Assembly (NCBI GenBank): GCA_964598025.1
Contig: CAZRAU010000002.1
Span: forward strand, 17,854-81,853
Direction: 5' to 3'
DNA: 64,000 bases
Source: an uncultured bacterium
GTDB lineage: Bacteria > Arandabacterota > Arandabacteria > Arandabacterales > Arandabacteraceae
The first letter of the stretch is position 1. Every line of letters starts with the position of its first letter. The notes under the pieces were generated by a model. That model had not been told where the DNA came from, made no database searches, and worked only from the letters and a program-made list of their open reading frames with translations. Made by a program: the position numbers and the translations under genes. Positions 5,554 to 27,724 of the stretch are shown here, piece after piece.

Positions 5554-5563
5554 GGTGACCTCC
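5554..5563 (-). repeat. GGAGGTCACC motif copy (inverted orientation, 154 nt upstream of minus-strand HK ORF)
   Basis: Plus strand reads GGTGACCTCC. Confidence 0.6.
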
Positions 5564-5720
5564 AATAGGCAGTGTCGGCAGCCCTTCACTACGTCTTTAG
5601 CTTCGATCCGGCGGGTTGTGCGTTCGACCTTGGATACCCGGGCGGCGATTCGGGTCAATGAATTCGGTATTCACTATTTCAAGCTAATGCAAGACGCACA
5701 GAATGTCGATAACCGCCGAT

Positions 5721-5730
5721 GGAGGTCACC
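5721..5730 (+). repeat. GGAGGTCACC motif copy abutting ATG 5731
   Basis: gatGGAGGTCACCATGaag; SD-like GGAGG 5 nt before ATG. Confidence 0.7.
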
Positions 5731-6783
5731 ATGAAGGGCCATTGTGCGCTTGTGCCAGCCGCTTCGTTTGGCGGAGCTAGTGGTTTTTTCAAGCATCCGT
5801 TCGGCATGTTGAATTGCCTCTCTGCCTCACGATGGTGTATCAGAGGAGGGCGCGTGGCAGAAGCGAACCATGGTCCGGAACCGGTCAGCATCCTACTGGT
5901 TGAAGACGATCCCGGCGACGTGCGTCTCATTCGTGAGATGCTCACCGAATTACAGGCGGGCAGTTTCTCACTCACCGTGGCGGACACCATTGAGACGGCG
6001 ATTGCGACTATGGCGTCTGAGCGGCCGGAGGTGATCCTCCTCGATCTTTGCCTGCCCGACAGCCGGGGACTGGACACATTCATGCAAATCCGCGATCGCA
6101 CGGCGGACATACCGATCGTTGTTCTCACAGGCGTCAGCCAGTGGGACACGGGCATCGCGGCCGTCCAGAAGGGGGCTCAGGATTATCTGGTGAAGGGGCA
6201 GGTCGACGGGCAGTTACTGCGGCGGTCGATCCACTATGCGGTTGAGCGCTATCGCCTGATCATAGAGCTCGAACACTCCCGTGAGCGGGAGGAGAGGTTG
6301 CGGGAGCTCCGATCGCTGGACAGACTCGCCGGCCGGCCGCCGGATGACTGCGACGGTAAGCCGTGGGCGGAAGCGGTCCTGCGTAGTGCGCTCCCCCGGA
6401 AGTTTGTTTCACTCACTGAGAATCTCGGCGGATTGCTCGAAACGGCGCTGGAAGAGGACATTCACAAGTCAGAGAGGAAGGTGCCCGGTGAGATCAGGTC
6501 GATGGCCGAGGAGATCGGGCGGCTTGGCGGCGGCCCGCGCGATGTGGTCGACATTTACTATACGGCAATCCGCGAACGCATGGAAGTCAGCGATGCCGGC
6601 AAAGCAAAGGCCTATGTCCGGGAGGGCCGTCTTGTGCTGCTCGAGCTTCTAGGATACCTGGCTTCTTATTATCGGACCCTGTCTCTAGGTATAGTCACAG
6701 ACCCAAGAGGAGTCATCCGTGGGTACAGAGAGGCACCACCGGAGCCTGCGGGTGGGCGGACCGGTCGAATTGAGGGGGGCTGA
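5731..6783 (+). CDS. response-regulator receiver fused to a KaiA-like C-terminal helical domain (KaiA3-like); track ORF starts at 5719
   Basis: Receiver motifs VSILLVEDDPGD...VILLDLCLPDSRG...IVVLTG...KGAQDYLVKG. C-terminal 60 aa (DVVDIYYTAIRERMEVSDAGKAKAYVREGRLVLLELLGYLASYYR) resemble the C-terminus of cyanobacterial KaiA as I recall it (VVEIHMELMDEF...YRLTLIDVIAHLCEMYRRSIP). Position immediately upstream of kaiB-kaiC with 1-nt spacing. Confidence 0.6.
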   Translation: MKGHCALVPAASFGGASGFFKHPFGMLNCLSASRWCIRGGRVAEANHGPEPVSILLVEDDPGDVRLIREMLTELQAGSFSLTVADTIETAIATMASERPEVILLDLCLPDSRGLDTFMQIRDRTADIPIVVLTGVSQWDTGIAAVQKGAQDYLVKGQVDGQLLRRSIHYAVERYRLIIELEHSREREERLRELRSLDRLAGRPPDDCDGKPWAEAVLRSALPRKFVSLTENLGGLLETALEEDIHKSERKVPGEIRSMAEEIGRLGGGPRDVVDIYYTAIRERMEVSDAGKAKAYVREGRLVLLELLGYLASYYRTLSLGIVTDPRGVIRGYREAPPEPAGGRTGRIEGG

Positions 6784-6784
6784 T

Positions 6785-7090
6785 ATGAGAGGTTGCATCA
6801 AGTTGAAACTGTATATCTCCGGGCATACCGTCAGGTCTGACAACGCGATCAGCCATCTTCGCAGCATCTGCGAGGAAATGGTACGGGGCGGCTATGAGAT
6901 AAGGGTCATAGATGTCACGAGACACCCCGACCAGGCGGAGATCGATGGGGTCCTGGCCACGCCGACCCTGATCAAGGATTCGCCTCCGCCGGCTGCAAGG
7001 CTAATCGGGGACCTGTCCGATAGAGAGAGAGTAGTCACGGCGCTGGATCTGCGGTGTGAGCCGGCGGCACATGGCGCGAAGTCACTCTGA
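6785..7090 (+). CDS. kaiB: circadian clock protein KaiB homolog
   Basis: IKLKLYISGHT...EIRVIDVTRHPDQAEIDGVLATPTLIKDSPPPAARLIGDLSDRERVVTALDL matches the KaiB thioredoxin-like family signature (KLxLYV.G, ATPTL, IGDLS). ATG 6785 is one nt after the stop of the upstream gene. Confidence 0.9.
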   Translation: MRGCIKLKLYISGHTVRSDNAISHLRSICEEMVRGGYEIRVIDVTRHPDQAEIDGVLATPTLIKDSPPPAARLIGDLSDRERVVTALDLRCEPAAHGAKSL

Positions 7091-7112
7091 CCGAACAGGG
7101 GGTAACCATAGG

Positions 7113-8648
7113 ATGAGAACCAAGAGACAGGGTGCCGACATCGACAGGGTGCCGACCGGTATGCCCGGCTTCGACCTGATATCCCATGGCGGCCTGCCGG
7201 CCGATAGGAGCACGCTGATCACGGGAACGCCCGGAAGCGGAAAAACCATGTTCGCAGTTCAATTCCTGGCCGAGGGGATACGAAGACACGGGCAGTCCGG
7301 CGTTTTCGTCACCTTCGAGGAATCCACGGATGATCTGCGGAAGAACTTCATCAGCCTCGGGTGGGACATCGAGAAATGGGAGAGCGAGAACAAGTGGCGT
7401 TTTGTTGATGTATCGCCGCACGCGGGGCAACGGTTGATACGAGTCGGCAAGTTCGACCTGAGCGCTCTTCTCACAAGGATCGGGAGTGCCGTGGAGCAGG
7501 TTGGCGCCAAGCGCGTGGCCCTGGATTCACTGGGCGCCATATTCACGCAGGTAACGGATCGTTCCACGCTGCGGAGCGAGATCTTCCGCATAATGTCCGT
7601 GCTGAAAGAAATGGAAGTCACGGCGGTTCTCACCGGCGAGCACGGCAGGGACGATGAGGTCATCACGAGAAGCGACATGGAGGAATTCACCGCCGACAAC
7701 GTGGTGATAACGCGGAATATTCGTGAAGATGAGCGACGGCGGAGAACCATCGAAATCCTCAAGTTCCGGGGCACAACCCACGAGAAAGGTGAACACCCCT
7801 TCACAATAATAAGGCGCCATGGTATTGTCGTGCTGCCTCTTTCGTCAATCGAGCTGAAGCAAAAATCTACGGAAATTCGCATGACCTCCGGCAACGTCAC
7901 ACTGGACGGGATGTGTGACGGGGGGTACTTCAGGGATTTCATCGTCGCCGTAAATGGGCCGACCGGGACGGGGAAGTCCCTCATGGCGACAGAGTTTGTC
8001 AAAGGCGGACTCCATGAGGGGGACAGATGTCTCTTTCTTGGCTTCGAAGAGAGCAAGGATCAGATTTTCAGGAACGCGTCTCGCTGGGGAATCGACTTCG
8101 CGGGCGCTGAATCGGCAGGATTGCTGAAGGTGTCGTGCGAGTATCCCGAGGCAATGGGGCTGGAGGACCATTCGCAAAGGCTGCGGACTCTGGTCAAGGA
8201 ATTCAAACCCAACCGCCTGGCCCTGGACAGCCTCTCGGCCCTGGAGCGGGTAGCCTCAGGCAAGGGATATAGAAAGTTCGTTGTTGGATTGACGGCATTT
8301 CTCAAGCAGAAGGGAATCGCCTCCTTGCTTACGGTCAACACTCCGGCAATAGCGGGGTCCCCGTCGATGCCGGAGGCCGAGATATCGAGTCTGGCGGATG
8401 CGATCATCCTGCTGAGGTATGTGGAGGTCCACGGTGAGATGAGGCGGGGGCTGACCGTCCTCAAGATGCGCGGTACGAGTCACGACAAGGAGATCCGCGA
8501 ATTCGCCATTGACGGGACCGGAATGCATATAGGGCAGCCGTTTCGCAATGTGAGCGGCATCCTGACGGGATACAGTCACAACGTGGTTCCGAGCGAGCTT
8601 GAACGGGTAGGTGAACTATTCGGGGAATCCAGCTCTGCCAGGAACTGA
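7113..8648 (+). CDS. kaiC: circadian clock protein KaiC homolog (double RecA-like ATPase); start 7113 preferred over track 7056, which overlaps kaiB
   Basis: Two Walker A motifs GTPGSGKT and GPTGTGKS. Catalytic EE pairs (VTFEES, LGFEES). C-terminal region AIILLRYVEVHGEMRRGLTVLKMRGTSHDKEIREF typical of KaiC. Candidate phospho-sites ISS aligned to S. elongatus IST. SD agggg before ATG 7113. Confidence 0.92.
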   Translation: MRTKRQGADIDRVPTGMPGFDLISHGGLPADRSTLITGTPGSGKTMFAVQFLAEGIRRHGQSGVFVTFEESTDDLRKNFISLGWDIEKWESENKWRFVDVSPHAGQRLIRVGKFDLSALLTRIGSAVEQVGAKRVALDSLGAIFTQVTDRSTLRSEIFRIMSVLKEMEVTAVLTGEHGRDDEVITRSDMEEFTADNVVITRNIREDERRRRTIEILKFRGTTHEKGEHPFTIIRRHGIVVLPLSSIELKQKSTEIRMTSGNVTLDGMCDGGYFRDFIVAVNGPTGTGKSLMATEFVKGGLHEGDRCLFLGFEESKDQIFRNASRWGIDFAGAESAGLLKVSCEYPEAMGLEDHSQRLRTLVKEFKPNRLALDSLSALERVASGKGYRKFVVGLTAFLKQKGIASLLTVNTPAIAGSPSMPEAEISSLADAIILLRYVEVHGEMRRGLTVLKMRGTSHDKEIREFAIDGTGMHIGQPFRNVSGILTGYSHNVVPSELERVGELFGESSSARN

Positions 8649-8675
8649 AAGCAGGTCGCCCATCCGGTCGGCCAT

Positions 8676-11041: not shown

Positions 11042-11153
11042 CTATCACCATGACTCGTCCTGACCGGGCAGTAGCTATGGGGCCGGCCGGTGCAACGCCC
11101 ATGGGCGCATCTGTGCCTATGATCAGGGTGACGGAAATGGATACATGATCAGC

Positions 11154-11181
11154 TTGACAATACCTGGGTCTGTGCTATGCT
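11154..11181 (+). promoter_or_regulatory. candidate sigma70-type promoter TTGACA-N16-TATGCT
   Basis: Exact -35 hexamer at 11154-11159 and TATGCT at 11176-11181 in the 425-nt intergenic region, about 290 nt upstream of the CheB-CheR ORF. Confidence 0.3.
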
Positions 11182-11467: not shown

Positions 11468-14400
11468 GTGATGGTCGCCGAGAAGAGAAAGCGAAAAGCC
11501 AAACCGACTGAGCCGGACAGACCCCGGGGGAAAGCCTGTGGGCACGGGCCCAAAGCGAAATCCTGCTCCCCAGGGACCCCATCCGATGAACCCGTCGCGA
11601 TTGTAGGCATTGGGGCGTCCGCCGGCGGGCTTGAAGCTCTTGAGGGGTTCTTCGACCACCTGCCTCCGAAGAGTGGCATAGCCTATGTGGTAATCCAGCA
11701 CCTGGCGCCGCAGCATAAGAGCGTCATGGATGCGATCTTGTCCAAACACACCGGCATGAGGATCAACAGGATCACCTCCGGTATGAAAGCCGAACCCGAC
11801 AACATATATCTCAACCAGCCGGATAAAGACGTGACGATTGTAAATGGACTTCTGTGTCTGGCCGAGCTGGAAGAACCGCACGGTATCAGGTTGCCGATTG
11901 ACCGTTTTCTGCGTTCCCTTGCCGCGGACCGGGGCGAGAAAGCCGTCTGCGTCATCCTCTCAGGTACCGGGAGTGACGGTACTCAGGGGTTGAAGGCTAT
12001 CAAGGAGACGGGCGGAATGGCAATGGTCCAGGAGAAGGAACAGGCGAGGTACGAGGGCATGCCGGCGAGTGCTCTTGCAACAGGCCTTGTGGATTTCGAG
12101 CTGCCCGTTGAGGATATGGCCGACGAGATCATGAAATTCGCATCACACACCTATGTCAGATGCCAGCAGGCGGTCACCGCCCCGGAAGAAGATATGGAGG
12201 GCTCGTTTGCAAGGATATTCTCGTTTATCCGTTCGGAAACGGGTCATGACTTCTCGGGCTACAAGAGGAAAACCACCCAACGCAGGATAGAGCGTCGGAT
12301 GGCGCTGCATGGAATCGATGCGGTGGACGCCTATGTGACTTTTCTCAGAGAGGATTCCAATGAAGTCAAGGCGCTTTACCGGGATATGCTGATCACGGTC
12401 ACGAGTTTCTTCAGGGAACCGGAGGCTTTCGAGGTTCTTGAGAAAACGGCGGTGCACGAGCTGCTAGATACGAGAGAACCGGACACGGCCCTACGGGTCT
12501 GGGTACCCGGCTGTGGTACGGGAGAGGAAGCCTATTCCATTGCGATTTTGATTGCCGAACACCTGGCGGCAAGGAAACGGCACCTTGAGGTCCAGGTATT
12601 CGCTACCGATCTGGACGATGGCTCGATCGAGTACGCGCGGGCCGGCGTCTATCCCGCCAGCATAGCTGCGGATGTCAAAGCAAAGCGACTGGAGCGATTT
12701 TTCGTGAGTGTTGATGGTTCATGGAGGATCAAGCGGCGGATTCGGGAGATGCTTGTCTTCGCCGTCCAGGACCTTATCAAAGATCCGCCCTTCTCGAATC
12801 TCGATCTAATCAGCTGCAGGAACGTGCTCATATACTTGGACGGCGCCCTCCAAAAGGAGGTACTATCACTCTTCCACTATGTGCTTCGGCCCGGCGGGTA
12901 CCTCTTCCTTGGTTCCGCCGAGACGATCGGCGGATTCGGTGACCGGTTCGAGACGGTTGACTCAAAACACAGGATATACAGACGAAAGGAAGCTATTCAC
13001 GGTGAGGTCAAGCCACACGGCGTACCGCCGTTCTTTGAGCGACGCGGCAGGTATCCCTTAACCGGTGAGCCCAGCAGCCGCAGTGCGAGCGACATCCGGG
13101 GTCTCGCACACCGAGCAATCATCGACAAGTATACTCCCCCGTGTGTGCTGATAAACGGGAGACACGAGATTCTGTACTTCCACGGTGACACGGACAAGTA
13201 CCTGGCTTCACCGGCTGGAGAAGCCAGCCTCGACATCCTGAAGATGATCCGTCCGGAGATTCGCTATAAATTGAGCGGAGCACTCCACAGTGTTTCCAAG
13301 GGCCTTGAAACCGTCGTATGTGATGATCTAACCGTAGTGCACGGATGCGAGTCGGTCAGCCTGGATCTGGTGGTCAAGCCGGTGGAGGATCTCCGCGGGG
13401 CGCCGGGTATGATGCTGGTAGTGTTTGAGGAGAGGCGCAAGCCGAAGCCGGCGCGCCGGAGAGCCGGACGATACAAAGCCGATCACCCGGAGGATTCCAG
13501 TGCGACCGCGCTGCAACAGGAGCTGGCATCGACGAAGGAGCATTTGCAGGCGGCGATCGAGGAGCTGGAAACCAGCAATGAAGAACTCAGATCGGCCAAT
13601 GAAGAGCTCCAATCGACCAATGAGGAGCTCCAGTCGACCAATGAGGAGCTGGAAACCGCCAGGGAAGAACTGCGATCCTCAAATGAAGAGCTGGAGACCG
13701 TGGCCACGGAGCGTGAGCACAAGATACAGACGTTGTCGAAAGCGCATGACGACCTCAACAATCTGCTTGCGAGCACCGACATCGGAACCATCTTCCTGGA
13801 CTTGGAACTTCGCATCAAGTTTTTCACCCCACCGACAACGGCGATCTTCAACGTGATCGAGACTGATATCGGCCGGCCGATTAGCGATATCACTACGGCG
13901 GCGAAATACGCGGGCCTCGACCGGGATGCCAGAGAGGTGCTCACGACCCTTACAAAGAAGGAGACAGAGGTTCAAACCACGGATGGGAGGTGGTTCACAG
14001 TCAAGATGCTGCCGTATCGGACGACGGACAACGTCATCAATGGCGTGGTGATCACCTTTACGGACGTCACGAGGATTAAGCGCGCGCGGGAGCACCTGGC
14101 GATAAGCAGGGTCGCGTTGGCGGCCTTTATGGAGTCGGCAACCGACGGGATGATGCTGTTCGACTCGGAGGGCAATCTCATTGAGATGAATTCCGCTGCG
14201 CTTGAGTTATTTCCACGGGGCATTCGGAAGGAAGATGTGACCGGCGAGAGTATCGCGAAGGTCCTGGGCCTTATCGGCCAAGGGGACCGAGCCGAGGATT
14301 ACTATGCAACGCTGGAGACCGGAATACCCTTCATAGATGGGGAGCGGCAGCGGCATCCGAGAATCGCGGGAAGGTACTTCTCTGCAAGGGTTTTCAGGAC

Positions 14401-14869: not shown

Positions 14870-14899
14870 CGGTACGACGGCGTTGGCCGGTGTTCGGAG

Positions 14900-15472: not shown

Positions 15473-15606
15473 CATCGCCACACCCGTGGCGACGAAAGCC
15501 TTAGAGCGGCGTCATTCATCGCAACGCCACGGTAGGCAGCCAATTTCTCTTCCCACAGCCGGCATATCCATTCAAGTGTTGAGGTGCTTCGTCCGATGTA
15601 ACTAGT

Positions 15607-15616
15607 GGAGGTCACT
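15607..15616 (+). repeat. GGAGGTCACC motif copy (9/10, GGAGGTCACt) abutting ATG 15617
   Basis: tGGAGGTCACTATGagg. Confidence 0.6.
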
Positions 15617-19096: not shown

Positions 19097-19209
19097 CCTA
19101 CCGCCGGGAACTGCCTGTCGCAAGTCGCAAAGCACCGGGATAGAATCTTCTTGAGGAATGCGACCTCTTTCAACTAAAGACATCGGGAGGAGTGTCGATA
19201 TATACAGAT

Positions 19210-19219
19210 GGAGGTCACC
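19210..19219 (+). repeat. GGAGGTCACC motif copy followed by AGATGG, inside a 540-nt gene-free island
   Basis: gatGGAGGTCACCagATGg. Confidence 0.7.
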
Positions 19220-19631
19220 AGATGGTTCAGTCGGAAGTCTTAGGACTAAGCAGTATCCCTGGGAAGCTCAGTGGGCAGAGATCGAATTCTCACGTGCCCC
19301 TCGCTCCCGCCGATTCGTCGGGCCGGACAGTCCACCCTCTCCTCGCGGGAGCGGCCTGTTGCCCCCCGGCTATCCTGGCCTGCGAATCACTCTGTCCGTC
19401 GCCCCCGTCTCGTCAGGGAATCCGGCGCCTCTCCTTATGCACACCAGGCTCCCCGGAGACGGTACCCCCGTGGGTGTGGCAGCCGACTGGTGAAGTTGAA
19501 GACTCCCTTCTGGCGAACCTCGCCAAGGGGGTGGGGTCCCGAAGAGCACACATTCGCGGAAGCGGGCGGCGATGTCCGACCGCTCCCTATTGGGACAACG
19601 TTGGACCCCGCCCATCCCCAACCTATATGCG

Positions 19632-20555
19632 ATGGCTACACACATGAAAGTATTGATCATAGACGATAGCCCCGATGCCATGATGATCGCAAAAGCCCGG
19701 TTGGCCGGCGAAGATATCGAGATCCTGTGTGCCGACGGCGGGCGCAGCGGCCTTGCTATTGCCGAACAGGAGAAACCGGACGCGATCCTTCTGGATCTGG
19801 ACATGCCGGACATGTCGGGATTCGATGTCTGCCGGGCGCTCAAGTCCCACCTTGAGCTCAACATGATCCCTATCGTCTTCCTGTCCGGGTCAGGCAGCCC
19901 GGAGGACAAGATAAAAGGTCTCAACCTTGGGGCCGTGGACTATGTGACGAAGCCTTTTGACGCATTCGAACTCAAGGCGCGGGTCAGGGCCGTGCTGAGA
20001 ACCAAGCGTCTGCAGGATCTCCTCGTTGAGCAAGCCCGGATCGACCCGCTGACGGGGTTGCCTAACCGCCGAGCGTTCACCGAAAAGCTCGGGCAGGAGT
20101 GGGCCAGAGTGAACCGGCACCAGGTGGCGATGTCTTTAATCATGGCCGACATCGACACCTTCAAAGCTCTGAACGATACCTACGGCCACCAGGTGGGCGA
20201 CGAAGTCTTGCAGGAAGTTGCAGCCAGGATCCGGCAGTCATGCCGGGTCAATGACATGTCCGCACGGTACGGTGGCGAGGAGTTTGTTATTGTCGCCCCC
20301 GACACAGTCGCGGTGGGGGCTTTCCGGCTCGCCGAGAGGTGCCGCCGTGCTGTGGAAGGCATCCGCCTGAAGGTTGACGGCTCGACGGTGTGTCCCACGG
20401 CAAGCTTCGGTGTCGCCGACGCGGACCAGGCGGATTCACCGGAGGCGTTGATCAGGCTGGCCGATGACGCCCTTTATCGGGCGAAAGCCGCGGGTCGTAA
20501 TCGTGTGGAATGTTCCGGTCCTGTACCCCACGAGGCACATGCCGAAGCCCTATAG
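19632..20555 (+). CDS. response regulator with GGDEF diguanylate cyclase output (REC-GGDEF); track start 19572
   Basis: MKVLIIDDSPD...AILLDLDMPDMSG receiver. RYGGEEFVIV active-site motif and RxxD-like region. Confidence 0.85.
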   Translation: MATHMKVLIIDDSPDAMMIAKARLAGEDIEILCADGGRSGLAIAEQEKPDAILLDLDMPDMSGFDVCRALKSHLELNMIPIVFLSGSGSPEDKIKGLNLGAVDYVTKPFDAFELKARVRAVLRTKRLQDLLVEQARIDPLTGLPNRRAFTEKLGQEWARVNRHQVAMSLIMADIDTFKALNDTYGHQVGDEVLQEVAARIRQSCRVNDMSARYGGEEFVIVAPDTVAVGAFRLAERCRRAVEGIRLKVDGSTVCPTASFGVADADQADSPEALIRLADDALYRAKAAGRNRVECSGPVPHEAHAEAL

Positions 20556-20684
20556 GCAGTCCGCCCTCCCTGCGGGCACACCATAAGCGCATCACCACCG
20601 AGCCGTCGGTCCGGGGATCCGGCCGGACTGCATCACGCGATTTACACTTAAACCCGAATGTCACCGGTGCCGATATGAATACAT

Positions 20685-20694
20685 GGAGGTCACC
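20685..20694 (+). repeat. GGAGGTCACC motif copy abutting ATG 20695
   Basis: catGGAGGTCACCATGtta. Confidence 0.7.
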
Positions 20695-21297: not shown

Positions 21298-21298
21298 C

Positions 21299-23212
21299 AT
21301 GCGAGACGAATACAAGTTCATCATAATCGGTGGAATTGCCGGCGCTGCCATTTACTTCACTCGAAGCGTCGCCAGTCCCCTGCTTTTTCCGGATCAGTCG
21401 GCCTGGGAGTGGATCGGCAACGAACTCCCGATCTATGCGATCGTTACGGTGTTCGCAGTGGCTGCATTGCGCATTCTCAGGGGCCACAGGGCGGTTGTTC
21501 GAACCACGAAACAGCTTCAACATGAGTCCGATATCCGTGACCGGATCAGCAGGACATTCCTGTTGGCCCCGGAAGAGAACGTGTACTCGGACGTGCTGGA
21601 TCACATAATCAAGTTCACCGGCAGCAAGCACGGCGTCTTCGGCTATCTGGATGAGCGCGGGCGCCTGGTATGTCCGTCCCTCACCGACCGCCAATGGGAT
21701 TTGCTGCAATCGCAGGATACAGGCATCGTCTTCAAGCGGCATACCTGGACGGGCCTATGGGGACGTGCGCTTACCGAACGAAGGCTCGTATGGTCGAACA
21801 GTAGCATAACCACACCAGGGGGGCCCGGGGCAGTACACCGGGCGGTAGGCGTTCCGCTAATGCATGAGCGCAAGGTCATCGGACTCCTGATGGTCGGGGA
21901 GAAACCGACGGACTACTCGCTTGCGGACCGGGTGTTCATTCAACATATTGCAGACCATATCGGGCCCATCCTGAACCGGAAACTCGAGGCATTCACGCCG
22001 GACTCGGAGGGTGGGGCCGGCTCGGACAGGCAGCAAGCACAGATCCGGATTCTCCAGCAGCAGCGTCTGGACGCTACATCCGCCGCGACGAGTGCCGTCG
22101 CCACCCAGTTCAGCCGGTGTGTATCCGGCACAGGGACCAAAATAGCCTCAGCGGTCAAGGGAGACGACCGGCGCCTGTTGCTCGGGGACCTCAGGCGGGT
22201 CTATGAGATCGGGCTCAGGTCGGTCAACCTGACACGGCAATTGCTGCTTCTTAATCGAAAGCACTTCATCAGGCCAGTTACCCTGGACATAAGCGTTGTA
22301 ATGCATGAAGTGCTGAAGATGATGGGCAATCTGCTAGGTGAAGATGTCGAGGTCACCGCCGATCTGGAGGCGGACCTCTGGTCTGTTCAAGCAGACCGAG
22401 CCGCGATAGAGCAGGTAATAACGGAACTGGTCATGAATGCCCTCGCTGCGATGCCGGCGGGAGGACATCTCCGGATTGAAACCCAAAACGCCGCCATCGG
22501 GGAAGGGGAATACGAGCTGACCGAAGAAGCCCGTCCCGGCAATTTCGTGTGCATATCGGTGACGGATGACGGGCACGGAATGGACAGGACCAAGCTCAAG
22601 AACGTATTCGAGCCGTTTACCGGTGGGGAAGAGGAAGAGGCGGGACCGGGCGTGGGCCTCTCGGTGGCCCGGAGCATAATCAGACAGCATGAAGGTTGGA
22701 TCAACGCATACAGTGAGCCGGGGCGAGGCTCGACGTTCAAGATGTACTTGCCCGGATTGGCGATTGCGCGCCGGGAGACCCATGAAGGGCCGGCGTCGAA
22801 TGAGGCCGTCAGGGGCCACGGAGAGAGAATCCTCCTGGTCGAAGACGAGGACGAAATCTGCGAATTGGTCGCACTCCTGCTTGCGGAGAACGGATACGCG
22901 GTGACCAGTGCCGCGCATGCCAATGAGGCCATCAGGATCTTCAGAAGCGAGAATGGGACATTCGACTTGTTATTCAGCGACATCGCACTACCCGACGAGG
23001 ACGGTATCTCCCTCGCAAACAGGCTGGTGCGAATCAAGCCCGATCTCCCGGTCTTGCTTACCAGCGGCTACATGGACGCCGAAGGCCAGTGGCGTATCAA
23101 GTGCGACAAGGGATACGGTTTCGTCAGCAAGCCCTTCTCGACCGCAGTCATGCTGAAGGAGGTCTCCCAGGCTCTCACCCAGGGTAGTGCCGTGGACAAG
23201 GTCACAGCGTAG
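21299..23212 (+). CDS. hybrid histidine-kinase-like protein (2TM-GAF-DHp-HATPase-REC) whose H-box histidine appears replaced (AVATQFSR instead of VAHDFNN)
   Basis: ATG 21299 one nt after the TAA of the upstream ORF. GAF similar to the 15617 protein. DHp alignment anchored on LTRQLLLLNRKH. Intact N/G boxes ([46 protein letters not shown]). Receiver with Asp (LLFSDIALPDEDG). Confidence 0.8.
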   Translation: MRDEYKFIIIGGIAGAAIYFTRSVASPLLFPDQSAWEWIGNELPIYAIVTVFAVAALRILRGHRAVVRTTKQLQHESDIRDRISRTFLLAPEENVYSDVLDHIIKFTGSKHGVFGYLDERGRLVCPSLTDRQWDLLQSQDTGIVFKRHTWTGLWGRALTERRLVWSNSSITTPGGPGAVHRAVGVPLMHERKVIGLLMVGEKPTDYSLADRVFIQHIADHIGPILNRKLEAFTPDSEGGAGSDRQQAQIRILQQQRLDATSAATSAVATQFSRCVSGTGTKIASAVKGDDRRLLLGDLRRVYEIGLRSVNLTRQLLLLNRKHFIRPVTLDISVVMHEVLKMMGNLLGEDVEVTADLEADLWSVQADRAAIEQVITELVMNALAAMPAGGHLRIETQNAAIGEGEYELTEEARPGNFVCISVTDDGHGMDRTKLKNVFEPFTGGEEEEAGPGVGLSVARSIIRQHEGWINAYSEPGRGSTFKMYLPGLAIARRETHEGPASNEAVRGHGERILLVEDEDEICELVALLLAENGYAVTSAAHANEAIRIFRSENGTFDLLFSDIALPDEDGISLANRLVRIKPDLPVLLTSGYMDAEGQWRIKCDKGYGFVSKPFSTAVMLKEVSQALTQGSAVDKVTA

Positions 23213-23408
23213 CGTCGAGACTTCTGTCGCGGGCGGGCCGGCTCGCGTCATCCGCGAACCTCGGTCGCGAGGTGACGGAGATGCCGGTGCCGTGGCAGAG
23301 GGTTTGTGAATAATCAGGGCTAGGTGGGACGGCGGAGGCTCCGGGTATCGGAGCGCCCCAGCGATGGAATCTGCGGGGCTGGCCGCGCTCGGCCAATGAC
23401 CGCGGTTT

Positions 23409-23418
23409 GGAGGTCACC
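23409..23418 (+). repeat. GGAGGTCACC motif copy in gene-free convergent intergenic island
   Basis: gtttGGAGGTCACCtaagg. Confidence 0.7.
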
Positions 23419-23474
23419 TAAGGAAGGTGCCGCGGCCAGAGGAGTGCGGCCAGCCCCATTGCCGCTCTCACACT

Positions 23475-23484
23475 GGAGGTCACC
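23475..23484 (+). repeat. GGAGGTCACC motif copy followed by AGATG (same extended form as copy at 19210)
   Basis: actGGAGGTCACCagATGtgg. Confidence 0.7.
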
Positions 23485-23885
23485 AGATGTGGGGTGAGCG
23501 GCATTGCAGATCGTATCGCTTCGGCGGGCGCGCCCGTGCAGCCGGCCATGTGGCCGGAACGGGGCCGTCGTCTGAAAACCGAACACGGGGATTGGAGTCC
23601 TCGTCGTCCCGGCTCCATCAGATCTTTTCGGCATGCCCAAAGCCTCCGCGTTTTCGTCTATCAAAAAAGGCACAATCGATGTCGTCTCACGTTTACGACG
23701 ACTCAATTGCGCCTTCGACTTGCAGGTCTTATAACCTGCCCGGCAAGGCGGCCCGCGCCCAAGTCGCGAGCCTTTTTCACTATCCAACTATCTACTTCGA
23801 CACATGGCCTGGAAACTTTAGCTGTTTTTGTGGCATCTTTTCTTTTTCACTCTTGGGCGCCATGCACGCTCGTCGGACGGCTGTC

Positions 23886-24635
23886 TCAATCGGTCGCGTC
23901 GACCAGGTCCTCAATCTTCTTGCGTAGGTCGCTGAGCTCCTTGGATCTGAACGACCGCTTGGACTTCTCGAGCACGTCGATCGTCTCCTTCATGGTGTCG
24001 ACGAGTTTCCTGGTTCTCGGGCAATCCAACAGACGGCAGATCTCGCCCTTGCCGGCTGAATCGGCAATAGCGGCCATGGCCGTCCTCAGGTCGGCCAAGC
24101 CGCCGGCGATGTGGCTGAGAGTCAACGCCACATACGTATCGGTGGGGACCGCGGGCAGGCCGGCCGGCTTTTCGGAAAGAACGCTCTTTATCTCGTCGAG
24201 GTCGCGGTCCCAGTCCAGGAGGCGCTGTTGAGTCTTACATACGGCCTTGAAAACCCTGGAACGTGAAAGGGCGGATTCGATCGCGGTCAGTAAGGCCGGA
24301 AAATCTATCGGTTTCAACACATAGGCAACGACGGGCAGGCTTACCGAATCTATGGCGGTTCTCATCGAGGGGTAGCCGGTTACCAGGATTACCGGGAGGC
24401 CATCGTCCAGGTCCTTGACTTTCCGAATAAGCTCCAGGTCGGGGTTCCCGGGCATCTTTATATCCGCGATAAGGAGATCGTACTTGTCCAGCCGCAGTGC
24501 CTCTGCCGCGGCCCTCCCATCCGGGACACAACAGCACTCATATCCCTCATCACGGAGAAGGTCACCGGTGGATTTCAGAAACGACATCTCATCGTCGGCA
24601 AGCAGCAGTTTCCCCTTAGAGGTGGTATCAGGCAT
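23886..24635 (-). CDS. response regulator: receiver + uncharacterised ~120-aa helical C-terminal domain
   Basis: KLLLADDEMSF...LLIADIKMPGNPD...VILVTGY...VAYVLKP. Overlaps the end of the upstream HK by 8 nt (operon). Confidence 0.75.
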   Translation of the reverse strand: MPDTTSKGKLLLADDEMSFLKSTGDLLRDEGYECCCVPDGRAAAEALRLDKYDLLIADIKMPGNPDLELIRKVKDLDDGLPVILVTGYPSMRTAIDSVSLPVVAYVLKPIDFPALLTAIESALSRSRVFKAVCKTQQRLLDWDRDLDEIKSVLSEKPAGLPAVPTDTYVALTLSHIAGGLADLRTAMAAIADSAGKGEICRLLDCPRTRKLVDTMKETIDVLEKSKRSFRSKELSDLRKKIEDLVDATD

Positions 24636-27471
24636 TCTGATCCTCCGATCTCCACGGCAATCTTACGATGAAGGTTGTCCCTTTGCCAACAGCAGTCTCG
24701 AAAGCGATGGTCCCTCCCATGGCCTCGATCATGTTCTTCGATACCGATAACCCCAGCCCCAGGCCGCGCAGATCGCCTTCGGACCTCGTGGTGAAAAACG
24801 GTTCGAATATCAGATCCCGGTGTTCGGGCGCGATCCCTGTACCGGCATCCTCAACTTCGATAACCACGCCGGAAGCCTCTCGATTGATGGACACCGTTAT
24901 CGTCCCGGATGTCGGGGACGCCTCAATGGCGTTGCTGAGCAGGTTGAACATCACCTGGCTGAAGTATCCGACCGGCAGCCTGACATTCACGGGCTCCTGC
25001 GGCGCGTTGCAGAGCAGCTTGATCTCCCTTGCCCTCAGACTGCTCTCGAGCAGAGTGAAGACCTCCTTAACCGAGTCGACCACCGAGATCGCGCGGCGCG
25101 GCTGCACCTCGTCGCGGTAAAGCTCGAACATCTTACGGATTATCAAGGCGATCCGGTCGATTTCGTGTCCGACCAGATCGACATACTCGAAACGCGGATG
25201 ATCCTTAGGGACGGCTCCCTTGATCAGAAGAAACGAGTTCTTGATGCCGGCAAGCGGATTGTTTATCTCATGGGCGATTCTGGCCGCCATCCTGCCGGTC
25301 GCGGCGATTCCTTCAGCGGAGGCGCGCTGCCGCTCGAGATCATGTATGCGCTGCGTTCGTTGCTCCACGAGTCTCTCCAATTCCTCGCTGTAGGTTCTAA
25401 TCTGCGCTTCCGCGAGGCGGAGCCCGCCCTCGCTGTTCTTAAGATTGGTGATGTCAACCGCCGAGACAAGCAGGTTTGTAGACATGTCCCGGGATGGGGC
25501 AACGGCAACCGAGCGGAGGCTGACATATCGCTCGCGGCCTTTGGCCGTGCGCGTGCGATACTCCGCATGGAAGCGAGCATTGCCGCCGGCGAGCGCTATG
25601 ATGGTGCCCACAAACGGCTCCAGCGCGGGGCCGCGGATACTCGAGACAACGAACTCTCGGAACTCATCCATTGTGGCACATTCATACAATCTCAGGGCCG
25701 CGTCATTCGCCCGGTCTATGCTCATCACTTGTGCGCATGCCGAGAGGTCATCCGGATGGCTTCGGAGGTGGGCTGCGCAGTCTGTAATGGCCCGTGATCG
25801 GAGATCATCGAGGTAGGCTATCACTTTCGCACAATCGATCTCGACCAGGGCGATGGGTGCTTCCTCGAACAGACGCCTGTAGGCTTCCTCGCTCTTCCTG
25901 AGTGCGCCTTCGGTTCGCTTGAGATCGGTAATATCCAGGATAACCCCCAGGAACCCCGCAAGCGACCCGTCCGGGCCGGCATACGTGGCCTTGTTGAAGA
26001 CCACGTCCCTGACGTCGCCGGCCGCCGTTTTGACCCGCCGCTCGTAGGTTTGGGTGCCTGGGTTCGCGAAGAGCTCGGCGTCCATCTTCGTACACTCGTC
26101 GGCGACCTCCTTGGGCGCTATCTCGTACCCGGTTTTGCCGATTATCTCAGCCTGCGTCAGCCCTATGAAGCGCTCGAAAGCCCGGTTACAGCCCGTGTAG
26201 CGCCCTTCCGGGCCCTTGTAGAACACAGGATTGGGGATTGTGTCCATCAGTATGCGTAGCAGCTCAAGCTGGCGCTTGAGTTCGACCTCGGCCTGTTTGC
26301 GCTGCGTGACGTCGCGGGCGACATTCATGATCTCGACAACCTTCCCATCCCTCAAGATCGGGATCGCGTTTATCTCGAAGCTGCGAACCGTGGCTTCGTC
26401 GAGATGCACTGCAACGTCGAAGCCCCGCACCTCCTCGCCGGCCCGCAGCCGCCCTGCAACCGTGGAGATGGCATCGGGGTCGGTTGCGGTGAAGAGTGAC
26501 AGGACATTGACATTCCTCGCTTCCTCCAGTGTGAGCCCGAGGAGGTCGAGGCTGGCCTTGTTTGCATAAAGGATACGGCCGTCGGCATCGGTGAGGTACG
26601 TGTGATCAGGATTAGCCGACAGGAAGAGATTCAGTCTCCGTTCGTGCTCGGCGATCTCCATCCGCCCCCATCTTCGCTCGATGAAACCGGCGATGTCTCC
26701 TGCCAATATGTCGATGAGCCGCTTCTCCTCCTCAAGGAAGGGGGCTTCGGTGGGCCGGGCCGGATCCTCAAGGTAGTAAACCTCTATGGCCCCGACGAGA
26801 GCATCCTTTACTCTTATGTCCGATGACATCCTGCATGGGCTTTCCTCGAAGCCGGAGGTTCTCACCTCGGTACCGGACAATACGATTCGCACGCATGTGT
26901 CGCCGGGGCGGCTCATGGCCGACGGCAGTAGATTCGCTATCTCCTGGAGCACCCGGGGGACTTCGGCTTCCGGGTCTGCCATCGCTTTCGACGTCGCGTG
27001 AAGGCAACTGAGTTCTCGCACCCGCACATGGAGTTTTCCCCGCTTGTCTTCCAGTTGCGCCATCGCAGTCTTCTGCTCGGTAATGTCACGGAAGATTTCC
27101 ACTCTGTGGCGGGTCCCATCAGGATTCCGGACCAGCGTATCAATGATGTCGTATATCCGCTTGTTCTTCGGGCAGAACCATTCCCTTCGGGACTTCTCTC
27201 CGCGGTAAACCGCCTCACTCGGACAGCCCTCGCAGGTTGTCGGGCCTTGTTCGAAGTACTCATAGCACTTTCTGCCCTCCCAGGGGCCGTATAGGTCTTC
27301 GATCAAGTGGTTGACATAGAGGACGTCACGGGTCTGGTTGGTGATCAACAAGCCGTCTTCGAGGGCATCAAACACCCTGCGGAGATTATCAAGATCGTCC
27401 ATCAACCGCGCGCGGGCCCCTTCCGGCTCCCGTACCGACCGGTTCTTGGTCTTCGCTCGATCTCCCATCAT
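24628..27471 (-). CDS. multi-PAS sensor histidine kinase carrying the conserved 115-aa sensory module; ATG 27471 preferred (track GTG 27516)
   Basis: H-box AHEINNPLAGIKNSFLL. HATPase NLLSNAIEASPTSG...DAGTGIAPEH...GLGLGLSVSKNMIEAMGGTIAFETAVGKGTTF. Module LSCLHATSKAM...SAMSRP...TSGFEESPC...FLEEEKRLIDILAGDIAGFIERR. GGGAGG SD before ATG 27471. Confidence 0.85.
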   Translation of the reverse strand: MMGDRAKTKNRSVREPEGARARLMDDLDNLRRVFDALEDGLLITNQTRDVLYVNHLIEDLYGPWEGRKCYEYFEQGPTTCEGCPSEAVYRGEKSRREWFCPKNKRIYDIIDTLVRNPDGTRHRVEIFRDITEQKTAMAQLEDKRGKLHVRVRELSCLHATSKAMADPEAEVPRVLQEIANLLPSAMSRPGDTCVRIVLSGTEVRTSGFEESPCRMSSDIRVKDALVGAIEVYYLEDPARPTEAPFLEEEKRLIDILAGDIAGFIERRWGRMEIAEHERRLNLFLSANPDHTYLTDADGRILYANKASLDLLGLTLEEARNVNVLSLFTATDPDAISTVAGRLRAGEEVRGFDVAVHLDEATVRSFEINAIPILRDGKVVEIMNVARDVTQRKQAEVELKRQLELLRILMDTIPNPVFYKGPEGRYTGCNRAFERFIGLTQAEIIGKTGYEIAPKEVADECTKMDAELFANPGTQTYERRVKTAAGDVRDVVFNKATYAGPDGSLAGFLGVILDITDLKRTEGALRKSEEAYRRLFEEAPIALVEIDCAKVIAYLDDLRSRAITDCAAHLRSHPDDLSACAQVMSIDRANDAALRLYECATMDEFREFVVSSIRGPALEPFVGTIIALAGGNARFHAEYRTRTAKGRERYVSLRSVAVAPSRDMSTNLLVSAVDITNLKNSEGGLRLAEAQIRTYSEELERLVEQRTQRIHDLERQRASAEGIAATGRMAARIAHEINNPLAGIKNSFLLIKGAVPKDHPRFEYVDLVGHEIDRIALIIRKMFELYRDEVQPRRAISVVDSVKEVFTLLESSLRAREIKLLCNAPQEPVNVRLPVGYFSQVMFNLLSNAIEASPTSGTITVSINREASGVVIEVEDAGTGIAPEHRDLIFEPFFTTRSEGDLRGLGLGLSVSKNMIEAMGGTIAFETAVGKGTTFIVRLPWRSEDQNA

Positions 27472-27531
27472 GGGCCTCCCGGAGTGGGTAATAGCGATGC
27501 ACCGGACACCCGGCACCGCTATGGTATACCA

Positions 27532-27559
27532 AACATAGCACCACCTTGATGTTTGTCAA
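27532..27559 (-). promoter_or_regulatory. candidate sigma70-type promoter TTGACA-N16-TATGTT for the minus-strand HK/RR operon
   Basis: Minus strand reads gcTTGACAaacatcaaggtggtgcTATGTTtgg, about 60 nt upstream of ATG 27471. Confidence 0.3.
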
Positions 27560-27714
27560 GCTTGCCCGGAAGGCGCGTATGCGAGGCCCGGGGAAAGAAG
27601 AGAGCGGCTGGACGGCCGGGCAAGCCTGAGGAGACCGGCCCGGGGGCGGGGGATGCGGGAGCTGTTGCCGGATAGCAACCTCAAGTTGTTCATCCCCAGG
27701 CCGATAATAAGACC

Positions 27715-27724
27715 GGAGGTCACC
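27715..27724 (+). repeat. GGAGGTCACC motif copy about 100 nt upstream of the CHASE-HK ORF
   Basis: gaccGGAGGTCACCggtccaATG (short ORF only). Confidence 0.6.

What the first reader, a model, noticed from the sequence alone, without database searches (positions are those of the whole stretch)
5554..27724. Recurrent intergenic 10-mer GGAGGTCACC (8 copies) in the signalling island
- Copies: exact or 9/10 copies at 5554-5563 (inverted), 5721, 15607, 19210, 20685, 23409, 23475 and 27715.
- Location: all in intergenic DNA of the signalling half and none in the 32-kb glycan operon.
- Start-codon fusion: five copies are fused to start codons as (A)TGGAGGTCACC(AG)ATG. The annotated proteins at 5719, 15605 and 20683 therefore all begin MEVTM.
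- Gene-free copies: two copies with the same AGATG extension sit in gene-free islands, and one copy is inverted 154 nt upstream of a minus-strand HK. The element is therefore more than a Shine-Dalgarno sequence.
- Upstream context: several copies have ACA upstream (ACAtGGAGGTCA, ACAgatGGAGGTCA). This resembles the CsrA/RsmA binding consensus RUACARGGAUGU overlapping the SD. A dedicated DNA-binding regulator site is an alternative.
- Implication: either way it predicts a regulon of paralogous sensor kinases and regulators under common post-transcriptional or transcriptional control.
Basis: seen in the sequence. Interest (0 to 1): 0.7.

Follow-up and report, generated by a model that had tools for sequence, protein, structure and literature searches.

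The report
Sigma-28 promoters with invariant transcript start
The repeated 10-mer is the invariant first stretch of the messenger RNAs made from a family of flagellar-type (sigma-28) promoters that drive most of a signalling-gene island, so it does mark a co-regulated gene set, but not through the CsrA mechanism first proposed.

Summary
GGAGGTCACC occurs 7 times exactly (0.2 expected) plus one 9/10 copy, and all copies are intergenic.

It is not a free-standing site. In six window copies, and a seventh from the same organism's metagenome, it is the third block of a ~46-nt cassette: cTAAAg, N15-16, GyCGATAw, N7-8, (T)GGAGGTCACC. The first two blocks match the sigma-28 (FliA/SigD) promoter consensus, so the 10-mer lies at about +1 to +12 of the transcript.

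A syntenic locus in a related organism keeps all four orthologous copies intact, while neighbouring non-coding DNA is diverged.

The block holds a consensus Shine-Dalgarno sequence followed by a start codon. It is the gene's own ribosome-binding site in only two units; elsewhere it heads non-coding leaders of 100-430 nt.

Its flanking bases covary as a 4-bp stem with an AGGUCA hexaloop.

Two promoter-less copies lie in a conserved, strongly structured sense-strand element.

The CsrA hypothesis is not supported. A shared regulon is supported, through an alternative sigma factor.

What reads the invariant block remains unknown.

The parts
5554..5599 (-). Cassette 1: -35 TAAA (5599-5596), N16, -10 GCCGACAC (5579-5572), 8 nt, GGAGGTCACC (5563-5554). 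It is followed by a non-coding leader of about 190 nt before the PAS histidine kinase 3492-5360/5402.
5685..5730 (+). Cassette 2, back-to-back with cassette 1: -35 TAAT (5685-5688), N16, -10 GTCGATAA (5705-5712), 8 nt, 10-mer (5721-5730). A leader runs from 5731 to 5853. Then comes the REC (KaiA-like homologues)-KaiB-KaiC-RR/HK-RR operon, whose first gene starts at GTG 5854 with its own GGAGG.
15572..15616 (+). Cassette 3: -35 TCAA, N16, -10 TCCGATGT, 7 nt, GGAGGTCACT. The ATG at 15617 is the start of a 1159-aa PAS/GAF hybrid kinase, so here the block is the gene's own ribosome-binding site.
19175..19219 (+). Cassette 4: -35 TAAA, N15, -10 GTCGATAT, 8 nt, 10-mer.
19208..19643 (+). Conserved leader of about 436 nt for RR-GGDEF (19644-20555). 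It is 75% identical to the relative with no indels. A 141-codon ORF stays open and ends in an ATGA overlap with the GGDEF start, but shows no codon-usage or codon-position signature of a protein.
20649..20694 (+). Cassette 5: perfect TAAA-N16-GCCGATAT, 8 nt, 10-mer. The ATG at 20695 starts a 200-aa membrane protein, followed by GAF-HK-REC (21299-23212). In the relative three discrete blocks are conserved (-35, -10 and the TGGAGGTCACCATG block).
27681..27724 (+). Cassette 6: TCAA-N15-GCCGATAA, 7 nt, 10-mer. A 20-codon leader ORF follows, then the CHASE-PAS hybrid kinase from about 27822.
23316..23500 (+). Conserved structured element downstream of the kinase stop codon. It holds the two promoter-less copies. 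Copy 23409-23418 has GGAGGU in an unpaired internal loop and CACC paired to a downstream GGUG. Copy 23475-23484 forms the CUGG[AGGUCA]CCAG hairpin, extended to about 15 bp.

Best explanation
The 10-mer is the third conserved block of a promoter-plus-leader cassette. Blocks 1 and 2, (c)TAAA(g)-N15/16-G(C/T)CGATA(A/T), are the -35 and -10 elements of a promoter read by RNA polymerase carrying a sigma-28-family sigma factor (FliA/SigD/WhiG type). Transcription is therefore predicted to start 0-2 nt before GGAGG, and each mRNA begins (N)(U)GGAGGUCACC. Six of the eight transcription units of the signalling island, and at least one unlinked gene (a TonB-dependent receptor on L043), share this cassette, so they form one sigma-factor regulon.

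What is shown: the consensus match, the fixed geometry, the intergenic position and orientation, and conservation of three discrete blocks in a second organism.

What is inferred: the block works at the RNA level as a 5'-terminal module. It carries a consensus Shine-Dalgarno sequence followed 5-11 nt later by a start codon, and with two flanking bases on each side it can form a 4-bp stem with an AGGUCA hexaloop. In two units it is the gene's own ribosome-binding site. In the others it heads a 100-430-nt leader and opens a leader ORF whose peptide is not conserved.

The most likely role is ribosome docking and translation from the extreme 5' end. That would protect the mRNA and keep the long leader translated, much like 5'-proximal SD 'roadblock' stabilisers. 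It would also give the regulon a common post-transcriptional handle.

Sub-confidences: sigma-28-type promoter about 0.85; block acts in RNA about 0.6; ribosome-docking/stabiliser role about 0.35.
For: Enrichment: 7 exact copies against 0.2 expected.

Promoter geometry: seven copies have -35 3-4/4, spacer 15-16, -10 6-8/8, then 7-8 nt to GGAGG. Copy 20649 is a perfect TAAA-N16-GCCGATAT. All five intergenic matches to the sigma-28 consensus with 2 or fewer mismatches sit at cassette copies; the other 12 matches are intragenic, in line with a null of about 10.

Published consensus: TAAAGTTT-n11-GCCGATAA, and the validated aer promoter has the -10 GCCGACAT (PMC2859248). P. aeruginosa fliC is numbered (-36)TCTAAAG(-30) and (-15)GCCGATAA(-8) (PMC12784957).

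No sigma-70-like site coincides with the cassettes.

New copy in the same organism in front of a different kind of gene (L043).

Orthologous locus L051: all four copies keep the 10-mer. The -35 and -10 are conserved, the 7-8 nt between the -10 and the block are not, and DNA upstream of -35 is only 47-55% identical.

TCACC is not a generic spacer.

Start codon: ATG lies 5-11 nt after GGAGG in 7 of 9 copies, against about 8% expected per copy (own estimate).

Leaders are non-coding by codon usage and unrelated to each other.

Hairpin: 92.3% of cells paired against 82.0 +/- 3.4; 8 cells changed on both sides (0/500 shuffles reach this); covariation 0.369 against 0.170 (0/500); slid registers mostly 31-46%. 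Exact permutation p = 0.013 with 9 copies. There are four G.U wobbles and no A.C.

Precedent for 5'-proximal SD stabilisers: (PMC3997798, refs 106, 179, 180).
Against: No transcription start site has been mapped.

No fliA, flgM or flagellar gene is present in the 64 kb, and the rest of the genome could not be retrieved.

The hairpin is thermodynamically weak. Whole-leader folding shows the block neither more nor less paired than with shuffled tails (0.33 against 0.34).

With P. aeruginosa numbering, the outermost stem base may lie at -1.

The stem extensions in 20685 and 27715 lie upstream of +1, so they exist only at the DNA level.

Two promoter-less copies are conserved in a structured element. 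The block therefore has a function that does not depend on being at a sigma-28 start site.

Neither SD function nor the 4-bp stem explains the invariance of U-C-A.

The covariation rests on 13 partly related copies and essentially one variable pair.
Confidence: 0.6

Rival explanations
1. The block is the binding site of an unknown trans-acting RNA-binding regulator (a protein, or the ribosome in a special mode) that controls the whole sigma-28 regulon after transcription. The conserved structured element at 23316-23500, with two exposed copies, acts as a decoy, sponge or 3'-UTR handle for the same factor.
For: All 10 positions are invariant in 12 of 13 copies across two organisms, which is far more than SD function needs. 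The promoter-less copies are conserved in an element with 48 of 48 pairs kept, one compensatory change, and G.U pairs that fit only the sense strand, with fold z-scores of -5.0 and -6.6. Copy 1 presents GGAGGU in an unpaired internal loop and copy 2 presents AGGUCA in a hexaloop. There is precedent for titration of a regulator by motif-bearing RNAs in a sigma-28 regulon (PMC4894983).
Against: No candidate RNA-binding protein is encoded in the island. No Rfam family matches. Transcription of the structured element is unproven. The two copies present the block in different structural contexts.
Confidence: 0.2
2. The block is a double-stranded-DNA operator (inverted repeat NNGG-AGGTCA-CCNN centred near +7) for a dimeric repressor or activator that gates sigma-28 promoters. 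The promoter-less copies are extra binding sites.
For: The inverted repeat is visible in DNA. In 20685 (ACATGG/CCATGT) and 27715 (GACCGG/CCGGTC) it extends upstream of the predicted +1. The distance to the -10 is fixed. Copies exist without promoters.
Against: Covarying flanks are not expected for a protein site. The wobbles are G.T only, with no A.C. All copies share one orientation relative to the downstream gene. The central 6 bp are asymmetric. No helix-turn-helix protein is encoded in the island. GGTNACC is not otherwise unusual.
Confidence: 0.12
3. The copies are CsrA/RsmA binding sites overlapping the Shine-Dalgarno sequence.
For: The block contains GGA and overlaps an SD. Copy 20685 matches 10 of 12 positions of RUACARGGAUGU. 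CsrA is known to bind sigma-28-dependent flagellin leaders (PMC4894983).
Against: The ACA part is not conserved and lies upstream of the predicted +1. GGA is not in a loop more than chance. In the supported hairpin the loop is AGGUCA, not ANGGAN. No second GGA occurs at a consistent 10-60 nt distance (own inspection). The AAGGA hairpin at 23409 is lost in the relative. CsrA does not explain the invariant UCACC.
Confidence: 0.05
4. The copies are recent duplicates of one promoter (promoter propagation or a small mobile repeat) and their identity is historical rather than functional. Alternatively, this is simply the organism's generic strong ribosome-binding site.
For: 19210 and 23475 share the 16-mer TGGAGGTCACCAGATG and an upstream GAGGAGTG. 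Several kinases in the island are paralogous.
Against: Spacers, gaps and leaders are diverged to background while the block is invariant. Orthologous copies are conserved across species, whereas adjacent bases are not. There are no terminal repeats or conserved element ends. Other GGAGG sites use other spacers. The genome-collection scan finds no multi-copy genome.
Confidence: 0.03

Closest known systems
Sigma-28 (FliA / SigD / WhiG) class-III flagellar-type promoters, consensus TAAAGTTT-N11-GCCGATAA
   Same: Same -35 core (c)TAAA(g). Same 15-16 nt distance from TAAA to the -10 octamer. Same -10 GCCGATAA/T, including the variant GCCGACA- found in E. coli aer. The promoters sit upstream of, and point toward, signalling genes, as FliA promoters do for chemoreceptor and motility-linked genes.
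   Different: No flagellar or chemotaxis structural gene lies downstream. The targets are PAS/GAF/CHASE kinases, a KaiBC operon, a GGDEF regulator and a TonB-dependent receptor. Every copy carries an invariant 10-11-nt block at +1 to +12, which to my knowledge is not part of any described sigma-28 consensus. The sigma factor itself has not been seen.
5'-proximal Shine-Dalgarno stabilisers (STAB-SD of B. thuringiensis cryIIIA; polypurine 5' stabiliser and ribosome 'roadblocks' in B. subtilis)
   Same: An SD-like GGAGG lies close to the 5' end of the transcript and far (100-430 nt) from the main start codon in five units. Main genes where a start could be assigned (5854, 5360, L043) have their own ribosome-binding site; 19644 has no evident SD upstream and 27822 only a weak one.
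   Different: Here a start codon follows the SD and leader ORFs are open. The five bases after the SD are invariant. The block may be partly paired in a hairpin. Stabilisation has not been tested, and the organism's RNase set (RNase J or E) is unknown.
CsrA/RsmA sites in sigma-28-dependent flagellin leaders (C. jejuni flaA, B. subtilis hag) and their decoy RNAs
   Same: A GGA-containing motif overlaps the SD in mRNAs from sigma-28 promoters. There is a separate structured RNA locus with two more copies of the motif, which is formally like a titrating RNA.
   Different: The hexaloop is AGGUCA, not ANGGAN, and GGA straddles the stem-loop junction. There is one motif per 5' end rather than two. 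Invariance extends 3' of GGA, where CsrA has no requirement.
5'-terminal stem-loops that protect mRNA (E. coli ompA type; own knowledge)
   Same: A hairpin predicted to begin at or within 1-2 nt of +1, supported by covarying flanks.
   Different: The stem is only 4 bp (about -1 to -4 kcal/mol). It contains the SD and often the first two bases of the start codon. The loop sequence is invariant, which a purely structural protector does not need.

Membership tests
Sigma-28 (FliA/SigD-type) promoter | -35 element TAAA(G) | tested here: met
   4/4 in 5554(-), 19210, 20685 and L043; 3/4 in 5721 (TAAT), 15607 and 27715 (TCAA). The extended cTAAAg matches TCTAAAG of Pa fliC.
Sigma-28 (FliA/SigD-type) promoter | -10 element GCCGATAA/T with CGA core, 15 (+/-1) nt after TAAA | tested here: met
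   6-8/8 in seven copies, with spacer 15 or 16 in all. Perfect in 20685 and in its orthologue. The 23409/23475 copies fail this test (-35 1/4).
Sigma-28 (FliA/SigD-type) promoter | Intergenic, oriented toward a downstream gene, conserved in orthologous loci | tested here: met
   All seven are intergenic and co-oriented with the next gene. The -35 and -10 blocks are conserved in L051 while flanking DNA is not.
Sigma-28 (FliA/SigD-type) promoter | A sigma-28-family sigma factor encoded in the genome, and transcription dependent on it, with +1 about 7-8 nt after the -10 | not testable with these tools
   Only 64 kb plus short metagenome fragments of the organism are available. No sigma gene is in the window. 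No transcript data are available.
CsrA/RsmA binding site | GGA presented in the loop of a hairpin (ANGGAN hexaloop / A(N)GGA) | tested here: not met
   GGAGG is no more unpaired than with shuffled tails. The supported hairpin has loop AGGUCA, with GG of GGA in the stem.
CsrA/RsmA binding site | Match to RUACARGGAUGU, including the upstream ACA, within the RNA | tested here: not met
   10/12 only in 20685. Upstream bases vary (CGAU, CAGU, UAUU ...) and lie upstream of the predicted +1.
CsrA/RsmA binding site | csrA (and fliW or decoy sRNAs) present in the genome; binding shown | not testable with these tools
   The genome is not available, and no CsrA-like ORF was found among the annotated window genes.
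Shine-Dalgarno ribosome-binding site of the downstream gene | Complementary to the anti-SD CCUCC and 5-9 nt upstream of the gene's real start codon | tested here: inconclusive
   Met for 15617 and 20695 (spacer 5). Not met for 5721, 5554(-), 19210, 27715 and L043, where the main starts lie 100-430 nt downstream; an own RBS was seen at 5854, 5360 and L043, while 19644 has no evident SD and 27822 only a weak one.
5'-proximal SD stabiliser (STAB-SD type) | SD-like sequence near the 5' end, distant from the main start codon, that increases mRNA half-life | tested here: inconclusive
   The position criterion is met by inference from the promoter. The effect on stability cannot be tested here.
Repetitive extragenic element / MITE / mobile promoter | Conserved full-length unit with defined ends or terminal inverted repeats | tested here: not met
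   Only consensus positions and 10-16 nt are shared. Spacers and flanks are at background similarity.
Known RNA family (Rfam) | Covariance-model match | tested here: not met
   There are no hits at gathering thresholds in the whole window, and none at E <= 1 in 19050-24000.

The most novel reading that the evidence does not exclude
The invariant block (U)GGAGGUCACC is the recognition element of a so far undescribed regulon-wide post-transcriptional system attached to a sigma-28 regulon. An unknown factor reads the SD-containing hexaloop hairpin at the 5' end of every regulon mRNA. The conserved, highly structured sense-strand element at 23316-23500, which has two exposed copies and no promoter, titrates or recruits that factor. 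This would be functionally analogous to CsrA/Rsm titration but with a different motif and reader.
Probability: 0.2. Interest if true: 0.75.

Novelty: new variant of a known kind. Interest (0 to 1): 0.5.

Why it matters
The finding turns an anonymous repeat into a testable regulon. In an uncultured bacterium, one alternative sigma factor of the flagellar type appears to drive a whole island of sensor kinases, a KaiB-KaiC operon, a diguanylate cyclase and an outer-membrane receptor.

It also exposes something the sigma-28 literature I could search does not describe. An invariant, species-conserved block of 10-11 nt sits at the transcript start, its flanks covary, and it reappears twice in a conserved structured RNA element.

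If the block is a shared post-transcriptional handle, it would be a compact example of two-layer control of a sigma regulon: promoter plus 5' RNA tag. It would also be a convenient sequence tag for finding the regulon's members in metagenomes.

If it turns out to be only a strong ribosome-binding site kept by descent, the result is an ordinary set of FliA-type promoters.

Tried and rejected
1. Generic SD or compositional bias: rejected. Other GGAGG sites have varied spacers, and enrichment is 35-fold.

2. Conserved N-terminal peptide MEVT or a leaderless start: rejected. In L043 the real gene is out of frame, and in 19210, 5554 and 23409 that frame stops after 4-11 codons. The deposited products start downstream.

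3. Protein-coding 'leader' genes: rejected. Codon-usage scores are negative in all frames, there are no Pfam hits, and substitutions are spread evenly over codon positions.

4. Sigma-70, or an ECF-type reading of the blocks: there are no sigma-70-like hits at the cassettes, and the AAC-to-CGA spacing of about 21 nt is too long for ECF promoters (own knowledge).

5. Consistent long-range RNA structure sequestering or exposing the block: not found.

6. Minus-strand antisense/kissing-loop sRNA from 23409/23475: disfavoured, because G.U pairs and wobble-preserving changes fit only the + strand.

7. Restriction/methylation site GGTNACC: not depleted.

8. Searches in other genomes: GYCGATA-N9-GGAGGTCACC gave 38 single, chance-like hits without the -35 block. 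The non-source metagenome hits L040, L041/L044 and L045 lie inside ORFs or are ambiguous.

9. Footprinting at the REC-KaiBC operon: not possible, because the orthologues are internal to longer operons.

10. Taxonomic placement and retrieval of the 86.8-kb source contig: failed.

11. Candidate trans-factor among the island's REC proteins: no nucleic-acid-binding domain was found.

12. Literature search for the 10-mer: only eukaryotic primers.
Full report
**1. The observation.** GGAGGTCACC occurs seven times exactly in the 64-kb window, at 5554(-), 5721, 19210, 20685, 23409, 23475 and 27715(+). Dinucleotide-preserving shuffles give 0.20 on average, and none of 100 reached 7. The copy at 15607 is 9/10, GGAGGTCACT. 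All eight lie between ORFs whose products have clear Pfam domains: PAS/GAF/CHASE histidine kinases, REC proteins, KaiB/KaiC, a CheB-CheR fusion and an RR-GGDEF protein. The 32-64 kb half is an ordinary O-antigen/EPS-type cluster of GT4 glycosyltransferases, GDP-mannose dehydratase, a Wzt ABC transporter, and carbamoyl- and sulfotransferases. It contains only 1-mismatch variants, all inside genes. Other genes in the window use GGAGG with many different spacers (tacc, aaca, acgag, gcttgac, cctgagcc ...), so the TCACC tail is specific to these copies and is not the organism's generic ribosome-binding context.

**2. What the copies share.** Aligning the flanks showed two further blocks upstream. 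When anchored, seven copies read (c)TAAA(g) - 15 or 16 nt - G(C/T)CGATA(A/T) - 7 or 8 nt - GGAGGTCACC. These are six window copies plus L043, a copy from the same metagenome sample that is not in the window. The -35 scores 3-4/4 and the -10 scores 6-8/8.

This is the consensus of sigma-28 (FliA/SigD) promoters. It is TAAAGTTT-n11-GCCGATAA in E. coli, where the experimentally dissected aer promoter has the -10 GCCGACAT, as copy 5554(-) does (PMC2859248). In P. aeruginosa fliC the elements are numbered (-36)TCTAAAG(-30) and (-15)GCCGATAA(-8) (PMC12784957).

A loose scan (2 or fewer mismatches) finds 17 matches in the window against about 10 in Markov controls. Five of them sit exactly 7-8 nt upstream of a 10-mer copy, and these five are the only intergenic ones. 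The other twelve are inside genes. At a background of about 8e-5 matches per position, five of eight sites having a match in a 3-nt window cannot be chance (own estimate, about 1e-16). No sigma-70-like site coincides with a cassette. Copies 23409 and 23475 lack a -35 (1/4) and are treated separately below.

**3. Where the block lies in the transcript.** With either published numbering, +1 falls 7-8 nt after the -10 octamer. That is 0-2 nt before GGAGG, and in 5721, 19210 and 20685 it is exactly the A of ATGGAGGTCACC. The block is therefore the first 10-12 nt of the mRNA. This is an inference, since no transcript data exist.

**4. It is not generally the gene's ribosome-binding site.** Only at 15607 and 20685 does a gene with coding signal begin right after the block. 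NCBI's own product for 20695-21297 is 200 aa and starts MLFRL, not MEVTM.

For the REC gene after 5721, the identical JGI product is 309 aa, and homologues (270-300 aa) cover only the C-terminal 77% of the long ORF. The real start is therefore GTG 5854, which has its own GGAGG about 130 nt downstream. Similarly, main genes start about 190 nt after 5554(-), 430 nt after 19210, 100 nt after 27715 and 105 nt after the L043 copy; own ribosome-binding sites are visible at 5360 and in L043, but none is evident before 19644 and only a weak one before 27822.

The intervening stretches have no coding signature. Their codon-usage log-likelihood is about -0.3 per codon in every frame with flat GC1/2/3, whereas real genes score +0.13 to +0.34 with GC1/2/3 near 0.7/0.45/0.7. 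The leaders are also unrelated to one another.

A reading as a conserved MEVT peptide or a leaderless start fails. In L043 the real gene is out of frame with GTG-GAG-GTC-ACC, and in three copies that frame stops after 4-11 codons.

One feature does recur: an ATG 5-11 nt after GGAGG in 7 of 9 copies, where about 8% per copy is expected (own estimate p about 1e-5). So translation initiation at the very 5' end looks like part of the design. It yields the main protein in two units and leader ORFs of 20-141 codons, or in-frame extensions, elsewhere.

**5. Phylogenetic footprint.** The only homologue of the 200-aa protein (P0243) lies on contigs L051-L054 from another metagenome series. These show the same gene order, RR-GGDEF / small protein / GAF-HK-REC. 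Protein identities are 81%, 62% and 85%. Third codon positions are 60-73% identical, and DNA upstream of the -35 boxes is 47-55% identical with many gaps, which is effectively neutral.

All four orthologous copies keep GGAGGTCACC. At the 20685 orthologue three discrete blocks are conserved: TAAACCCGAATG, GTGCCGATAT and TGGAGGTCACCATGTTA. The bases between the -10 and the block differ in sequence and length (gaatacat against ttagggt). This is the pattern expected for -35, -10 and a third functional element. It excludes recent copying as the reason for the identity.

**6. A small hairpin.** Each copy can be written N1 N2 GG AGGUCA CC N13 N14. The flanks are complementary in most copies: AU/AU, GU/AU, CU/AG, GU/AC, CC/GG, UU/AA.

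With 13 copies, 92.3% of cells pair, against 82.0 +/- 3.4 in shuffles (1/500). Eight cells are changed on both sides (0/500 shuffles reach this). The covariation score is 0.369 against 0.170 +/- 0.045 (0/500). Most slid registers give 31-46% (one, -3, gives 79% with zero covariation), and the outer pair shows CG, AU, GU, UA and GC. With the nine copies from the source organism, the exact permutation test gave p = 0.029 for the outer pair and 0.013 jointly. There are four G.U wobbles and no A.C, which fits pairing in the sense-strand RNA.

Several caveats apply. The copies are partly related. Essentially one pair carries the signal. Part of the complementarity follows from having ATG on both sides. 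The stem is weak. Whole-leader folding shows the block no more or less paired than with shuffled tails (0.33 against 0.34). The stem explains the terminal CC but not the invariance of U-C-A in the loop.

**7. The promoter-less pair.** Copies 23409 and 23475 lie in a 670-nt gap between convergent genes. The segment 23370-23500 folds far better than shuffles (z = -4.96 on the + strand and -6.62 on the - strand; 0/200 shuffles as stable).

The element (23316 to at least 23490) is 83% identical in the relative, where it starts just after the kinase stop codon. Of its 48 predicted pairs none is broken. One shows a compensatory G-C to A-U change and two show wobble-preserving changes. Its G.U pairs work only on the + strand. 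It is therefore a conserved sense-strand RNA element, either the 3' UTR of the cassette-20685 operon or a separate sRNA. It is neither a decayed duplicate nor an antisense regulator.

Copy 1 presents GGAGGU in a 9-nt unpaired internal loop, with CACC paired to a downstream GGUG. Copy 2 forms CUGG[AGGUCA]CCAG at the tip of a hairpin of about 15 bp. The CsrA-like AAGGA loop beside copy 1 is not conserved; it is AAGUGAA in the relative. No Rfam family matches.

**8. Interpretation.** The best-supported reading is that a sigma-28-family sigma factor drives six of the eight transcription units of the island and at least one unlinked gene. Each transcript begins with an invariant, SD-containing module.

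For the module I favour ribosome docking and translation from the extreme 5' end. This would act as a 5' protector and keep long leaders translated. It is in line with STAB-SD and other 5'-proximal ribosome 'roadblocks' (PMC3997798). This role is inferred, and it does not explain all ten invariant positions.

The conserved promoter-less copies keep a more interesting alternative open: an unknown reader of the block, with the structured element acting as decoy.

CsrA is not supported, for the reasons given in the membership test. A double-stranded-DNA operator is possible but disfavoured.

**9. Limits.** The source genome could not be retrieved. It is not among the species representatives, and only short Logan and JGI fragments are held. 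As a result, the presence of fliA, flagellar genes and csrA, and the genome-wide census of the cassette, remain untested.

Noticed in passing
window 19208-19643 (and L051 495-930): The roughly 436-nt leader of the RR-GGDEF gene is 75% identical between the two organisms with no indels, while DNA upstream of the promoter is unalignable. A 141/139-codon ORF stays open in both and ends at the GGDEF start codon (ATGA overlap in the window, TAG-TC-ATG in the relative). However, substitutions are spread evenly over codon positions (28/40/41) and codon usage is non-coding. It may be a translated-but-not-selected leader or a new cis-regulatory RNA. There is no Rfam match.
   Followed up: partly
window 5854-8648: This operon encodes a REC protein whose distant homologues (P0046, P0057, P0061) carry a KaiA domain (PF07688), then KaiB (6719-7090) and KaiC (7056-8648), followed by an RR-histidine kinase and a single-domain RR. 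It looks like a KaiA-like/KaiB/KaiC cluster outside cyanobacteria, apparently under a sigma-28-type promoter. In relatives (L047, L048) the same genes sit inside a CheR-CheB-PAS-HK operon.
   Followed up: partly
window 20695-21297; 15617-19096 (aa 334-455); 24628-27516(-) (aa 160-281): A domain of about 120 aa with no Pfam or NCBIfam match (motifs LxxxLPxAMQYP ... TSGFxE ... FLxxEexLI) is shared at 36-40% identity by a small membrane protein and two histidine kinases (E = 6e-23 and 4e-21). It is a possible uncharacterised sensor domain.
   Followed up: partly
window 13520-13687: Inside the CheB-CheR-PAS fusion gene there are in-frame 21-nt tandem repeats encoding EEL(E/Q)(S/T)xNEEL heptad-like units, giving a coiled-coil linker (repeat family D1).
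   Followed up: no
window 59843-59862 and 59871-59883: A perfect 20-bp palindrome GGAGATCACC|GGTGATCTCC is followed by GGCGGTCACCGCC. Both lie inside the 3' part of the sulfotransferase ORF (59817-60659, minus strand) and resemble the 10-mer at 9/10 positions. Their function is unknown.
   Followed up: no
window 11154-11181: The CheB-CheR unit (11468-15472) is one of two units in the island without the cassette. It has a good sigma-70-like site instead (TTGACA-16-TATGCT with TG). The other cassette-less unit is the minus-strand HK/RR operon 23886-27516, for which no promoter was recognised.
   Followed up: no
L043 (Ga0307425_1054097) 331-376: This is a further cassette copy from the source organism's metagenome, in front of a TonB-dependent-receptor-like gene. 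The gene has a signal peptide and a weak Plug-domain match, and its own GGGAGG-GTG start lies about 105 nt downstream. It shows that the cassette is not confined to the signalling island.
   Followed up: partly
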